IMG/VR virus record: IMGVR_UViG_3300029288_006769
Location: 346,367-410,366 of that record
Length of the DNA stretch: 64,000 nucleotides
DNA from: a virus
Strand: one strand, 5' to 3'
Position numbers and translations under genes: made by a program. Shown piece by piece: positions 52,388 to 55,217 of the stretch. Below the pieces are notes generated by a model, which saw nothing but the letters and a program-made list of their open reading frames with translations, ran no database searches and had not been told where the DNA came from. Positions within the stretch are counted from its first letter, which is position 1. Every line of letters begins with the position of its first letter.

Positions 52388-52609
52388 ATTCCCTCCCATT
52401 GTTATGGGCAGCAAAAAAACATCCAGAACAACTTTTGAATTAATCAATGTTCCAGAAATCGTCAAGTTAATTTAATTTTGATAGGAAGGAATTTAATTGA
52501 GAGTAAATCAAATCTATCTAACCAACAAATATCTACCCTTATCCTTATATTATAGATTATACCACCTTATTGGTTTAAAATGAAAATAAAAAATATTTTT
52601 TAAAAATAA

Positions 52610-52639
52610 TTGTTACTTTTGCTAACTTTGATATATATT
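52610..52639 (+). promoter_or_regulatory. Possible sigma70-type promoter for the ncRNA array
   Basis: TTGTTA-18 nt-TATATT, ending 7 nt before unit 1. Confidence 0.35.
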
Positions 52640-52646
52640 TATTCTA

Positions 52647-52787
52647 GAACAAATGCTCTTTAACAGCAAGTGCTTACATTACTTTGTAGCTCAGCTGGTA
52701 GAGCGATTGCCTATTAAGCGATAAGTCTCAGGTTCGAATCCTGAAAAAGTAGCCAAAAACTAGCATTTACAACTCGAGCATTTGTTC
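52647..52787 (+). ncRNA. Scaffolded tRNA-like RNA unit 1 (Y RNA-like); normal-order Asn-like domain, ATT anticodon
   Basis: 12 bp outer stem GAACAAATGCTC/GAGCATTTGTTC; scaffold TTTAAC..GTGCTTACAT / TAGCAT..AACTC; 76 nt cloverleaf 52680-52755 ending GCCA. Confidence 0.8.
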
Positions 52788-52809
52788 ATTTCAAATTGAA
52801 AATAAATTT

Positions 52810-52966
52810 TTAAAACTGCTCTTTAACATCGGGTGCTTACATGGATATAACTTTAGTTCACCAAACCGAAGTTTGACGTTCGATTCGTCATTCCCCCGCT
52901 AAGAAAATATGTGTTTTCTTGGTGGGGGAAAGTAAAAAATAGCATACGTAACTCGAGCAGTTTTAA
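52810..52966 (+). ncRNA. Scaffolded tRNA-like RNA unit 2; permuted, opened in the D arm
   Basis: 12 bp outer stem TTAAAACTGCTC/GAGCAGTTTTAA; order: D 3' half, anticodon-like arm, T arm (TGACG-TTCGATT-CGTCA), acceptor closed by a long hairpin. Confidence 0.75.
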
Positions 52967-52979
52967 TTTTGAAAAATAA

Positions 52980-53115
52980 ACAAGTGTTCTTTAACTCTAA
53001 GTGCTTACATGCTTTTAAGCTCAATTGGTAGAGCAATTGTTATTGGAACAATTCGTTCTTGGTTCAAATCCAGGAAAAGCGACCAAAAAATAGCATTTAT
53101 AACTCGAACACTTGT
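52980..53115 (+). ncRNA. Scaffolded tRNA-like RNA unit 3; normal-order domain, TTG at anticodon position
   Basis: 10 bp outer stem ACAAGTGTTC/GAACACTTGT; 76 nt cloverleaf 53010-53085 ending ACCA. Confidence 0.8.
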
Positions 53116-53134
53116 CTTTTAAATAAGGAAAAAA

Positions 53135-53285
53135 TAAGTCATGTCTTTTAACCTTGGAAGCTTACATTTTTTTCGTCAGTTCAAATCTGACTGCTCCACC
53201 GGCGGTGGAGTATGGCCGAGTGGTTTAAGGCACCCAACTGCTAATTGGACAAAGAAAACAGCTCTCAGAACTCAGACATGACTTA
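53135..53285 (+). ncRNA. Scaffolded tRNA-like RNA unit 4; permuted tRNA-Ser(GCT), opened at the variable arm
   Basis: 12 bp outer stem TAAGTCATGTCT/AGACATGACTTA; order: T arm, loop-closed acceptor, D arm GCCGAGTGGTTTAAGGC, anticodon loop CTGCTAA. Confidence 0.8.
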
Positions 53286-53307
53286 AATTTTAAAATTCAC
53301 GATGAAG

Positions 53308-53343
53308 AAGAGGGCTCAATCAAAAGAGCCCTCTTTTGTTTTT
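53308..53343 (+). terminator. Rho-independent terminator closing the ncRNA array
   Basis: AAGAGGGCTC-AATCAAAA-GAGCCCTCTT followed by TTGTTTTT. Confidence 0.8.
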
Positions 53344-53413
53344 AGCATTATTTTTAGAATTTTACAAGTTAAAATATAGAAATAGAGCAACAAGCAAAAG
53401 AAAGGAATGAACT

Positions 53414-53665
53414 ATGTCAACGATCCATGTTGTTTACGGCGGAAGAAATGAAGATCTTGAGTTTGACGAAGTGTTCAGACCAGATAGACATGAAGCTCTG
53501 GGAGTAACAAATCCTGAACCAAGAAATATGACACCAGAAATTGTAAAACGAGCTTTAGCAAATCATTATGATGTGAATCAAAATGAATTTGAAGCTCATT
53601 TTGTCGAAATCAACTCGAACGGAAATATCACCGTACGTCCCAATGCGAGATGGGGAGGTCATTAA
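53414..53665 (+). CDS. Ubiquitin-like (beta-grasp) protein
   Basis: 83 aa ending NITVRPNARWGG-H; same operon as JAB and ThiF. Confidence 0.7.
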   Translation: MSTIHVVYGGRNEDLEFDEVFRPDRHEALGVTNPEPRNMTPEIVKRALANHYDVNQNEFEAHFVEINSNGNITVRPNARWGGH

Positions 53666-53666
53666 A

Positions 53667-55217
53667 ATGACAACTATGGTAAAAAAAGAACAAGACATCA
53701 GGGTTAAAATCCTCAACTCATTTATGACCTGTCCTCATCGAGACACGGGTGAATTGCAAAAAATTCATGCAGAAATGAGAGAGAAAGATCCTGTGTTCTA
53801 TGCACATCTTGCTGCATGGTACAAAAAGAATGGTGATCTTCGTGATCATAATGAAGTTTTCACAGCCATGTTGATCACAGATCCTTTCTTGGACAATCGC
53901 GAAACAGGTATTGCTCTTTTTCAAAATCAAGCTCCCTTTATGAAAATCAAAATTCTCAGTTTCATTAAAGGGAAGAAAATCACTCTGAGGGAAAAGACGG
54001 GTGAACAAGTCAAACGCGGAAAGAAAATGATTGATGAGATCAAAAATTCTAAGAAACAAGTTGGTCTTATCAAAAATATCCCAAACATACTTCGAACTGA
54101 AATCGAAAGATATGTTCGTTGGCTTGAAAAAGACAATGATAGATTTGATTCTGTTGCTCTGACAAATTTCAATGATTTGAAATCTTTTTATGCAGGTAAA
54201 GGTGTTCAGATCAAACCTTGTCCAAGAGCACAACAAATCCTGTTTGAAGAAAAATTTCCTGAAGATAGCAAACTTACTGTTTTCAAACAAATCAGAGAAG
54301 CTGATACGCCTGAGAAAGCAGCCAATCTGATGGTGCAACATAAAATTCCTTACACTATTGCAGTAGGTTTGAGAGATAAAATTACGCCATCTATTTTGAT
54401 TGCTTTGATCAATAACATGACTGCTCAGGAAATTATTACAAACATTGCTTCTTTGCAAGAAAAAGGTGCAATGGATAATCCTGGAACAAAAAAATTGATC
54501 ACAGAAAAACTTGAAGCAGCAAAAACAGCAAAGAATGTAACTGCTCTCAAATCCAAAAGAGCTAAGCAGACAGGAAGAGTCAAAGACGAAACTGTTCTCA
54601 AGCAGTTGGATGAAATTGCTGATAAGCAAATCAAAAAATCTGGGTCAATCAAAGTTTCTACTGGGTTGCTCATTGACAGATCAGGTTCTATGGATGTTGC
54701 AATTCAAGTTGGAAAACAGATTGCTGCAACAATTTGTGGTTCAATGGAAGCTGATTTGTTCGGTGTCGCATTTGATACTATGGCACAAGCTGTTAAAGCA
54801 AGTGAAAATACATTAACTGCTTGGGAAAAAGCATTTGCGCCAATCCATGCAAGCGGTAGAACTTCAGTTGGTTGTGCTCTTGATTTCATGATCAGGTATA
54901 AATTATATGCTGAACAGCTCATTATTGTGACTGATGAGGATGAAAACCAGAATCCACGATTTGCTGATGTATTTCCAAAGTATGTACAGGAAATGAAAGT
55001 AACTCCTGCAATTATTATCGTAAGAGTAGGTGACAAAAAAACTGGACTCAGTACTTCGCTTAAAAACGCAGGAATTTCTTTTGATTCATATGAACCATCA
55101 GGAAATGACTACTATGGACTTTCAGGTCTGATACCTTTGCTTTCTCGTAAATCAAAGTTAGACCTTGTTTATGAAATTATGGACTTTCCACTTCCGATTC
55201 GAAAGTCTTATGTCTAA
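53667..55217 (+). CDS. Ro60/TROVE-like helical domain plus C-terminal vWA
   Basis: vWA MIDAS IDRSGSM..GRTS..VTDEDEN; N-terminal DPVFYAHLAAWY..LRD and LINNMTAQEIITNIASL resemble TROVE segments; adjacent tRNA-like RNAs. Confidence 0.7.
   Translation: MTTMVKKEQDIRVKILNSFMTCPHRDTGELQKIHAEMREKDPVFYAHLAAWYKKNGDLRDHNEVFTAMLITDPFLDNRETGIALFQNQAPFMKIKILSFIKGKKITLREKTGEQVKRGKKMIDEIKNSKKQVGLIKNIPNILRTEIERYVRWLEKDNDRFDSVALTNFNDLKSFYAGKGVQIKPCPRAQQILFEEKFPEDSKLTVFKQIREADTPEKAANLMVQHKIPYTIAVGLRDKITPSILIALINNMTAQEIITNIASLQEKGAMDNPGTKKLITEKLEAAKTAKNVTALKSKRAKQTGRVKDETVLKQLDEIADKQIKKSGSIKVSTGLLIDRSGSMDVAIQVGKQIAATICGSMEADLFGVAFDTMAQAVKASENTLTAWEKAFAPIHASGRTSVGCALDFMIRYKLYAEQLIIVTDEDENQNPRFADVFPKYVQEMKVTPAIIIVRVGDKKTGLSTSLKNAGISFDSYEPSGNDYYGLSGLIPLLSRKSKLDLVYEIMDFPLPIRKSYV

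What the first reader, a model, noticed from the sequence alone, without database searches (positions are those of the whole stretch)
53135..53285. Circularly permuted tRNA-Ser(GCT) with the scaffold replacing its long variable arm
The order is T arm (GTCAG-TTCAAAT-CTGAC), acceptor 3' strand TGCTCCA, linker CCGGCGG, acceptor 5' strand TGGAGTA, Ser-type D arm (TG-GCC-GAGTGGTTTAA-GGC) and anticodon arm with loop CTGCTAA. The acceptor is closed by a loop with no CCA, so it cannot be charged as transcribed. YrlA RNAs are permuted at the anticodon arm and lose the anticodon; this unit keeps it. Alternative hypothesis: the scaffold is an excision/ligation signal producing a circular intermediate, as for the permuted tRNA genes of some algae and archaea. 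The phage encodes both an RNA ligase and a PNK-like kinase.
Basis: partly seen in the sequence, partly recalled or inferred. Interest (0 to 1): 0.85.

Follow-up and report, generated by a model that had tools for sequence, protein, structure and literature searches.

The report
Phage tRNA-Ser mimic, permuted at variable arm
A giant phage makes a small RNA that is a complete serine-tRNA look-alike, rewired so that its amino-acid end is sealed and a conserved "handle" grows out where the variable arm should be, next to a hidden Ro60-type RNA-binding protein gene; relatives in at least 24 other loci show this is a conserved design and a new variant of the known Y-RNA tRNA mimics.

Summary
Window 53135-53285 (+) reads handle 5' strand, T arm, acceptor 3' strand, short cap, acceptor 5' strand, Ser-type D arm, complete anticodon arm (CUGCUAA), handle 3' strand. 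As transcribed, no tRNA finder calls it. With the handle closed into a hairpin and the sequence rotated, ARAGORN calls tRNA-Ser(GCU) in 80/80 variants, against 0/2000 shuffles.

It is the last of four handle-sharing RNAs in one promoter-to-terminator unit. The array lies 380 nt upstream of a protein that Pfam misses but that folds as Ro60.

A covariance model finds 46 units of this topology near Ro60 homologues (34 distinct). Their acceptor, T, D and anticodon stems are 96-100% paired, with compensatory changes, and the 15-48 Levitt pair covaries.

My reading is a Y-RNA-like, non-chargeable tRNA mimic docked on Ro60 through the handle, showing its elbow and anticodon loop as bait. Processing into a working tRNA is unlikely:
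- the acceptor helix is capped;
- the phage has a normal tRNA-Ser(GCU);
- close relatives switch the anticodon on the same body (GCU to UCU);
- the nearest relative has lost the head but kept the handle.

It is a new variant of the YrlA kind. YrlA opens in the anticodon stem and has no anticodon loop. The scan noted the array family before on other DNA.

The parts
52610..52639 (+). Promoter-like site ahead of the four-unit array
   Evidence: TTGTTA-18-TATATT, the only sigma-70-like match in 52400-53450. A consensus match only.
52639..53131 (+). Units 1-3 of the array, with the same handle and other head wirings
   Evidence: The shared motif TTTAAC-N5-GTGCTTACA occurs at 52659, 52822 and 52990. 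Model R1 scores these units 43, 35.7 and 46.4 bits, that is, handle only. Units 1 and 3 contain ARAGORN tRNA calls.
53135..53146 (+). Handle, outer stem 5' strand
   Evidence: Pairs with 53274-53285. In the 34 units the 9 modelled pairs are 98.3% paired and all 9 show changes on both sides.
53147..53152 (+). Handle internal loop, 5' side (UUUAAC)
   Evidence: Conserved motif of all five units of this genome.
53153..53162 (+). Handle middle stem, 5' strand
   Evidence: Pairs with 53260-53268. The GC/CG core pairs are kept in 29-31 of 34 units; the rest is poorly aligned.
53163..53166 (+). Invariant UACA bulge between handle and head
   Evidence: Identical in all 34 units.
53167..53174 (+). U7 strand of the variable-arm-like helix, then C48
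   Evidence: U7 pairs with AAAGAAAA at 53251-53258. ARAGORN draws this as a 7-bp variable arm. C48 partners G15, and the 15-48 pair covaries in the family.
53175..53191 (+). T arm
   Evidence: 5-bp stem with loop UUCAAAU. The T loop is TTCRANT in 34/34 units and the stem is 98.8% paired.
53192..53212 (+). Sealed acceptor: 3' strand, cap CCGGCGG, 5' strand
   Evidence: 7 bp plus 2 further C-G pairs and a GGC triloop. The family stem is 98.3% paired with 7/7 pairs compensated. Three double changes separate it from the orthologue L051.
53213..53232 (+). U8, G9, Ser-type D arm (3-bp stem, loop GAGUGGUUUAA), A26
   Evidence: D stem 100% paired and U8-A14 present in 30/34 units.
53233..53249 (+). 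Complete anticodon arm, loop CUGCUAA, anticodon GCU at 53240-53242
   Evidence: Stem 95.9% paired in the family with 5/5 pairs compensated. The loop is 7 nt in 31/34 units and position 37 is a purine in 31/31.
53250..53285 (+). Handle 3' strand: A-rich variable-arm strand, middle stem, AACUC loop (53269-53273), outer stem
   Evidence: ACU of the 3' loop is invariant in alignment A3. Pairing as given above.
53306..53337 (+). Intrinsic terminator-like hairpin closing the array
   Evidence: 12-bp stem followed by a T run.
53667..55217 (+). Ro60-fold protein with a vWA domain, the likely partner of the handle
   Evidence: AlphaFold model with pLDDT 84. The top 12 Foldseek PDB hits are all Ro60/TROVE, best E 4e-11, aligned over the full length. 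A profile against PDB sequences hits only TROVE proteins, E 0.055. Pfam finds nothing.

Best explanation
This is a gene for a Y-RNA-like non-coding RNA whose head is a whole tRNA-Ser(GCU) body, circularly permuted in the variable region.

Shown: the RNA has all four tRNA helices and the core tertiary partners (U8-A14, G15-C48, GG in the D loop, a T loop). The acceptor end is closed by a 9-bp capped hairpin. The 5' and 3' ends leave the body exactly where a type II variable arm would, and run on into a roughly 30-bp handle with invariant UACA and ACU motifs. The design is conserved with compensatory changes in 34 distinct units, nearly all beside homologues of one Ro60-fold protein.

Inferred: the handle docks the RNA on that Ro60-like protein, as Y RNA stems do. 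The sealed acceptor keeps it out of charging and translation. The exposed elbow and intact anticodon loop act as bait for proteins that read tRNA shape plus anticodon loop. The most likely such proteins are host anticodon-loop nucleases or tRNA-modifying or repair enzymes. The RNA would either titrate them or bring them to Ro60 and the neighbouring RNA-repair, ubiquitin-like and PARP enzymes.

Sub-confidences: permuted tRNA mimic 0.9; Ro60 docking 0.65; bait or decoy role 0.35.
For: - The re-permutation test is positive, with 0/2000 shuffles scoring.
- On a MAFFT alignment that was not fitted to structure, the T, acceptor, D and anticodon stems are 95-100% paired and no shuffle reaches the observed values.
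- The same holds on 34 model-aligned units.
- The Levitt pair is A-U in 20 and G-C in 11 of 34 units. The T loop is invariant in form.
- Model R1 separates this wiring (66.6-137 bits, 46 hits) from other handle units in those loci (52.3 bits or less).
- The neighbouring gene has the Ro60 fold.
- Handle units were found in most Ro60-centred loci searched, including bacterial Chloroflexota contigs.
- Acceptor caps are GAAA, UUCG or GCAA tetraloops, or 28-37-nt hairpins that extend the helix.
- A canonical tRNA-Ser(GCU) exists elsewhere in the genome.
- The anticodon changes on an otherwise conserved body: L051 GCU against L064 UCU at 94% identity, and L054 AUU against L069 AUC with that as the only difference in 140 nt.
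- Position 33 is U in only 21/31 units.
- RtcB, an HNH-RNA ligase and a P-loop kinase are encoded in the phage.
- Published work shows YrlA is a Ro60-bound permuted tRNA mimic (PMC4201824; 10.1101/312249) and that a phage Ro60 binds phage Y-like RNAs (PMC12135203).
Against: - No expression, end-mapping or binding data exist.
- The handle lacks the GNCGAAN0-1G / GGUCCGA motif of known Ro60 sites, so docking rests on gene neighbourhood alone.
- A fifth unit with this wiring (Leu CAA) sits in the tRNA cluster about 220 kb from the Ro60 gene.
- This particular unit has a fully canonical anticodon loop and a 7-bp acceptor. M. smegmatis YrlA, which also has a 7-bp stem, is opened by RNase P and receives CCA (PMC4201824).
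- No target of the proposed bait is identified.
Confidence: 0.6

Rival explanations
1. It is a permuted tRNA gene that matures into a working tRNA-Ser. Either the handle is cut and ligated into a variable-arm hairpin (a circular intermediate) and RNase P/Z then open the acceptor, or RNase P opens the cap and CCA is added, giving a two-piece tRNA held together by the handle.
For: - The re-permuted sequence is a textbook type II tRNA-Ser with a canonical anticodon loop.
- The phage encodes RtcB, an RNA ligase and a P-loop kinase.
- Some relatives carry ACCA or GCCA just after the acceptor 3' strand.
- M. smegmatis YrlA is cut by RNase P and receives CCA (PMC4201824).
Against: - The discriminator here is C followed by CGG, not CCA.
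- Positions -1/73 and -2/74 are paired and capped, and this extension is kept by compensatory change in L051.
- Many relatives cap the acceptor with tetraloops or 10-bp extensions.
- The phage has no splicing endonuclease, and I see no bulge-helix-bulge in the handle by eye.
- A canonical tRNA-Ser(GCU) is already present.
- Ser-type bodies carry UCU, GUU or UAG anticodons in relatives. These would mistranslate if charged, because SerRS does not read the anticodon (the SerRS point is established knowledge).
- The closest relative, L140, has deleted the head.
Confidence: 0.08
2. It is a decaying remnant of two tandem tRNA genes (the T arm and 3' end of one, the 5' half of the next) with no function of its own.
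For: - Tandem tRNAs mimic this order. A tRNA-Lys dimer in this genome scores 54.5 bits with model R1.
- Relic CCA sequences in some caps, together with published ideas on YrlA origin, point to such an ancestry (10.1101/312249).
Against: - All helices stay paired through many compensatory changes in 34 distinct sequences, including the acceptor formed across the junction.
- The unit is framed by the conserved handle and scores 136.8 bits against 54.5 for a true dimer.
- It lies inside a promoter-to-terminator unit.
Confidence: 0.03
3. The handle is not a Ro60 site but a processing or stability cassette, for example a double-strand nuclease site that releases units from the polycistronic transcript. 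The proximity of Ro60 would then be incidental.
For: - Units 1 and 3 hold ordinary-order tRNAs with encoded CCA inside the same handle.
- A fifth unit lies far from Ro60 in the tRNA cluster.
- The handle lacks known Ro60 motifs.
Against: - Handle units recur next to Ro60 homologues across phages at 35-86% protein identity and in bacterial chromosomes.
- The invariant single-stranded motifs (UACA, ACU) look like a sequence-specific protein site.
- An empty handle is retained in L140.
Confidence: 0.15

Closest known systems
YrlA-type bacterial and phage Y RNAs bound by Rsr/Ro60 (Chen et al. 2014, PMC4201824; Wang et al. 2018, bioRxiv 10.1101/312249)
   Same: Both are encoded beside a Ro60 gene on the same strand. 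The order is stem 5' strand, T arm, closed acceptor-like stem-loop, D arm, stem 3' strand. The tRNA tertiary nucleotides are kept and there is no free CCA. YrlA has been described as resembling a circularly permuted tRNA, probably derived from tRNA dimers.
   Different: YrlA's terminal stem stands in for the anticodon stem and there is no anticodon loop. Here a full anticodon stem-loop lies between the D arm and the 3' strand, and the stem leaves from the variable region. The handle lacks GNCGAAN0-1G and has its own invariant UACA and ACU motifs. The partner Ro60 is too divergent for Pfam TROVE. Heads carry about 20 different anticodons.
Deinococcus radiodurans Yrn1 (Chen et al. 2014)
   Same: It is a Y RNA with tRNA-like features in a different arm order from YrlA, which shows that Y RNAs use more than one wiring.
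   Different: Yrn1 has a weak D arm and a 6-nt 'anticodon' loop, and its Ro60 stem sits at the acceptor position. It is not a complete tRNA body.
Permuted tRNA genes of Cyanidioschyzon merolae and Thermofilum pendens (cited in 10.1101/312249; PMC4090602)
   Same: The 3' half is encoded upstream of the 5' half, and the acceptor is initially closed by a linker.
   Different: Those genes mature through bulge-helix-bulge cleavage, ligation to a circle and RNase P/Z opening, and they are the cell's working copies. Here there is no such motif or endonuclease, the acceptor helix is capped, and a canonical copy exists.
Two-piece tmRNA from circularly permuted ssrA genes (from my own knowledge, not checked here)
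   Same: It is a bacterial and phage-borne tRNA-like RNA made from a permuted gene.
   Different: tmRNA keeps a free, chargeable acceptor end and acts on ribosomes.

Membership tests
YrlA-type Y RNA | Encoded within about 4 kb of a Ro60/TROVE gene and on the same strand | tested here: met
   The unit ends at 53285 and the Ro60-fold ORF starts at 53667 on the + strand.
YrlA-type Y RNA | T arm, closed acceptor-like stem-loop and D arm in that order, with tRNA tertiary nucleotides | tested here: met
YrlA-type Y RNA | The 5'/3' terminal stem takes the place of the anticodon stem, and there is no anticodon loop | tested here: not met
   A complete 5-bp / 7-nt anticodon arm lies at 53233-53249, and the terminal stem leaves between positions 45 and 48.
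YrlA-type Y RNA | GNCGAAN0-1G motif near the 5' end (the proposed Ro60 contact) | tested here: not met
   The motif is absent from 53135-53175 by inspection. The conserved 5' motifs are UUUAAC and GCUUACA.
YrlA-type Y RNA | Bound by Ro60 in vivo | not testable with these tools
   Needs a pull-down or EMSA.
Canonical type II tRNA-Ser gene | Contiguous cloverleaf with free acceptor ends, recognised by tRNA finders | tested here: not met
   No ARAGORN or Rfam tRNA call in linear form. Rfam gives only a partial match, 16.6 bits.
Canonical type II tRNA-Ser gene | Cloverleaf arms, 3-bp D stem, long variable arm and GCU anticodon once put in order | tested here: met
   ARAGORN calls tRNA-Ser(gct) in 80/80 variants, with a 7-bp variable stem made from the inner handle.
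Canonical type II tRNA-Ser gene | Discriminator plus a 3' CCA that is encoded or can be added | tested here: not met
   The acceptor 3' strand is followed by CCGG, which is paired into the cap.
Permuted tRNA genes processed through a circular intermediate | 3' half upstream of 5' half | tested here: met
Permuted tRNA genes processed through a circular intermediate | Bulge-helix-bulge at the leader-trailer junction, and a splicing endonuclease | tested here: not met
   The handle has a 4-nt/1-nt bulge and a 6/5 internal loop with conserved sequence, by inspection. PF01974 is absent from the phage. The host was not examined.
Permuted tRNA genes processed through a circular intermediate | It is the organism's working copy of that isoacceptor | tested here: not met
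   A canonical tRNA-Ser(GCU) lies at genome 180998-181081.

The most novel reading that the evidence does not exclude
The variable-arm wiring exists to display an intact, freely exchangeable anticodon arm on a Ro60 particle. On this reading the phages (and some Chloroflexota) keep a programmable set of anticodon-specific baits that capture or inhibit host anticodon-loop nucleases or other anticodon readers. That would explain the 20 different anticodons, the single-base anticodon switches between near-identical units, and the frequent G34-to-A34 and non-U33 loops. It would be a new RNA-based counter-defence principle.
Probability: 0.2. Interest if true: 0.85.

Novelty: new variant of a known kind. 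Interest (0 to 1): 0.62.

Why it matters
Y RNAs were known to mimic the upper half of tRNA. This unit shows a lineage in which the whole tRNA is displayed, anticodon arm included, by moving the break point to the variable region. The partner is a Ro60 that domain databases miss.

The finding gives a concrete, testable RNP: the handle, the Ro60-like protein and a tRNA-Ser head. It also gives a covariance model that finds dozens of members, and a reason why tRNA finders and Rfam overlook them.

If the heads are anticodon-specific baits, the system links Ro60 biology to the contest between phages and tRNA-cutting defences.

Tried and rejected
- **Rfam.** Runs at gathering and permissive thresholds gave nothing for the handle or the unit.
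- **Pfam TROVE.** Searches on the genome and on the ORF were negative. Single-sequence phmmer against PDB was also negative. The Ro60 identity appeared only with a profile and a fold search.
- **First motif pattern.** My first pattern had a wrong base and found only unit 4.
- **Viral-collection pattern scan.** Of 49 loci returned, only two (the same phage type) had the 3' half of the handle. The rest look like chance matches.
- **MAFFT on all 24 units.** This mis-aligned the variable caps, so I rebuilt the alignment from 15 short-cap units.
- **Minimum-free-energy folding.** It recovers the handle, T arm and capped acceptor but misfolds the D and anticodon arms, as is usual for tRNA.
- **tRNA-dimer artefact.** I considered this and rejected it on score and covariation.
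- **Infernal on the re-permuted sequence.** ARAGORN with shuffles was used instead.

Full report
**Setting**

The window is part of a 424-kb phage record with 35% G+C. Between a promoter-like site (52610-52639) and a strong terminator-like hairpin (53306-53337) lie four tandem units on the + strand. All four share a handle made of these parts:
- an outer stem of 9-12 bp whose sequence differs in every unit;
- a 5' internal-loop motif UUUAAC;
- a middle stem;
- the motif GCUUACA, followed by a variable insert;
- an A-rich stretch, AGC, a few bases, the 3' motif AACUC, and the outer stem 3' strand.

A fifth unit lies in the phage's tRNA cluster at genome 179634-179810 on the minus strand. The finding is unit 4.

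**The observation**

In linear form, ARAGORN and Rfam do not call a tRNA. Rfam's tRNA model gives only a 16.6-bit partial match covering the D and anticodon arms.

I closed the handle with a GAAA loop and let ARAGORN read across the junction. It then calls tRNA-Ser(GCU) at default thresholds in 80 of 80 trimming variants. None of 2000 dinucleotide shuffles gives any tRNA call.

The drawn cloverleaf has these features:
- a 7-bp acceptor;
- U8;
- a 3-bp D stem with the long Ser-type D loop;
- a canonical CUGCUAA anticodon loop;
- two unpaired bases, then a 7-bp variable stem made of the inner handle (A-rich strand with U7);
- C48 and a standard T arm.

The same test turns the fifth unit into tRNA-Leu(CAA).

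**Conservation**

The protein encoded 380 nt downstream (53667-55217) has hundreds of homologues. I fetched DNA around them from viral, metagenome and genome collections. A simple handle finder plus the rotation test found the same wiring in many loci.

I aligned 15 such units with MAFFT, with no structure used. On that alignment the T, acceptor, D and anticodon stems are 100, 99, 100 and 94.7% paired. Changes on both sides occur in 4/5, 7/7, 2/3 and 5/5 pairs. No shuffle or slid control comes near these values.

A covariance model built from this alignment gives these scores over 91 loci:
- 46 hits of 66.6-137 bits for this wiring;
- four hits at 52.3 bits;
- 50.6 bits or less for handle units with other wirings in those loci, including units 1-3 of this window;
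- 54.5 bits for a true tRNA dimer in the genome.

The 34 distinct high scorers give the same pairing picture, with the outer stem 98.3% paired.

Tertiary partners are kept:
- U8-A14 in 30/34 units;
- T loop TTCRANT in 34/34;
- the base just before the T stem pairs with D-loop position 15 as A-U (20 units) or G-C (11 units). This is the Levitt pair, and here it is G15-C48.

That last result places the exit of the handle exactly in the variable region. The direct orthologue in L051 differs from the window unit by three double compensatory changes in the acceptor, and it keeps the 2-bp extension under the cap.

**The partner**

Pfam finds nothing in the downstream ORF, and the genome has no TROVE match. 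A 35-sequence profile hits only two TROVE proteins in PDB, at E 0.055. An AlphaFold model (pLDDT 84) matches Ro60 structures over its full length as the top 12 Foldseek hits (best E 4e-11, TM about 0.57). These include the Ro60 of Thermus phage phiLo. vWA domains follow further down the list.

Handle units accompany most of the Ro60 homologues searched, including chromosomal loci of Chloroflexota. Binding itself is inferred, and the handle lacks the published Ro60 contact motif (PMC4201824).

**Mimic or tRNA precursor**

Several results argue for a sealed mimic:
- The cap extends the acceptor helix here (C-G, C-G, then a GGC triloop). In relatives the cap is a GAAA, UUCG, GCAA or similar tetraloop, or a 28-37-nt hairpin that continues the helix.
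- The phage has a normal tRNA-Ser(GCU) and a normal tRNA-Leu(CAA).
- On conserved bodies the anticodon changes. L051 has GCU and L064 has UCU at 94% identity. L054 has AUU and L069 has AUC, and that is the only difference in 140 nt. Ser-type bodies also carry GUU and UAG.
- Position 33 is U in only 21 of 31 seven-base loops, while position 37 is always a purine.
- The closest relative (Ro60 85% identical) has kept the handle at this position but deleted the head.
- The phage has no tRNA splicing endonuclease, and I see no bulge-helix-bulge in the handle.

Some points run the other way:
- This unit's loop is fully canonical.
- Its acceptor has 7 bp, like the M. smegmatis YrlA that RNase P opens (PMC4201824).
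- The phage encodes RtcB, an HNH-RNA ligase and a P-loop kinase.

**Comparison with known RNAs**

YrlA RNAs are described as resembling circularly permuted tRNAs with a closed acceptor, with a terminal stem in place of the anticodon stem and no anticodon loop (PMC4201824; 10.1101/312249). Unit 4 shares the neighbourhood, the T / closed-acceptor / D order and the tertiary core. It fails two defining features, the position of the stem and the GNCGAA motif.

I found no description of a Y-like RNA opened in the variable region with the anticodon arm retained. The papers I could search were the two above, a jumbo-phage survey (PMC7824862), the phage Ro60 study (PMC12135203) and a 2026 preprint on bacterial tRNA mimics. 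The Annual Review on bacterial Ro60 was not available.

**Verdict**

This is a new variant of the Y-RNA tRNA mimic. It is one of a family with at least 34 distinct members of this wiring. Earlier notes of this scan had already flagged the array family on two other genomes. What is added here is the test, the spread and the covariation of the variable-region wiring.

Noticed in passing
G000:C1:179634-179810 (-), = L144:635-811 (-): A fifth handle unit, with the same wiring and a tRNA-Leu(CAA)-like head and a 37-nt cap. It sits inside the phage tRNA cluster directly after a canonical tRNA-Leu(CAA), far from the Ro60 gene.
   Followed up: partly
L140:3056-3125 (+): In the closest relative (Ro60 85% identical) the handle of unit 4 is intact but the tRNA head is deleted. 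Units 1 and 2 are also lost there, apart from a 3' remnant.
   Followed up: partly
L054:2518-2657 vs L069:741-880; L051:2967-3111 vs L064:1576-1717: Near-identical units differ in the anticodon. AUU against AUC is the only change in 140 nt, and GCU against UCU occurs at 94% identity. This suggests fast or selected anticodon turnover.
   Followed up: partly
L106:2186-2366 (-), L139:2788-2954 (+), L103:1926-2069 (+): Some caps begin with ACCA or GCCA right after the acceptor 3' strand. These look like relics of an encoded discriminator plus CCA, and fit an origin from tandem tRNA genes.
   Followed up: no
L075:2019-2777 (-); L058:2091-2696 (-): Some phages carry three or four units of the variable-region wiring in tandem, several with non-U33 or 8-nt anticodon loops.
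   Followed up: no
L157 (Dictyobacter alpinus chromosome), L165, L162, L164: Ro60-like homologues in Chloroflexota and other bacterial assemblies also have handle units upstream. L162 and L164 have the variable-region wiring (85 and 102 bits).
   Followed up: partly
Rfam gives no match there at gathering threshold.
   Followed up: partly
G000:C1:1278-1350 (-) and 199752-200147 (-): The phage carries a tRNA with a CUA (amber-reading) anticodon, and its own tmRNA.
   Followed up: no
G000:C1:413221-415512 (+): An RtcB ligase matched in two pieces within one 806-aa open frame, which suggests an inserted element such as an intein.
   Followed up: no
window 52680-52755 and 53010-53085 (+): Units 1 and 3 hold ordinary-order tRNAs with encoded CCA but odd loops: anticodon AUU in one, and A33 with UUG in the other.
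   Followed up: no
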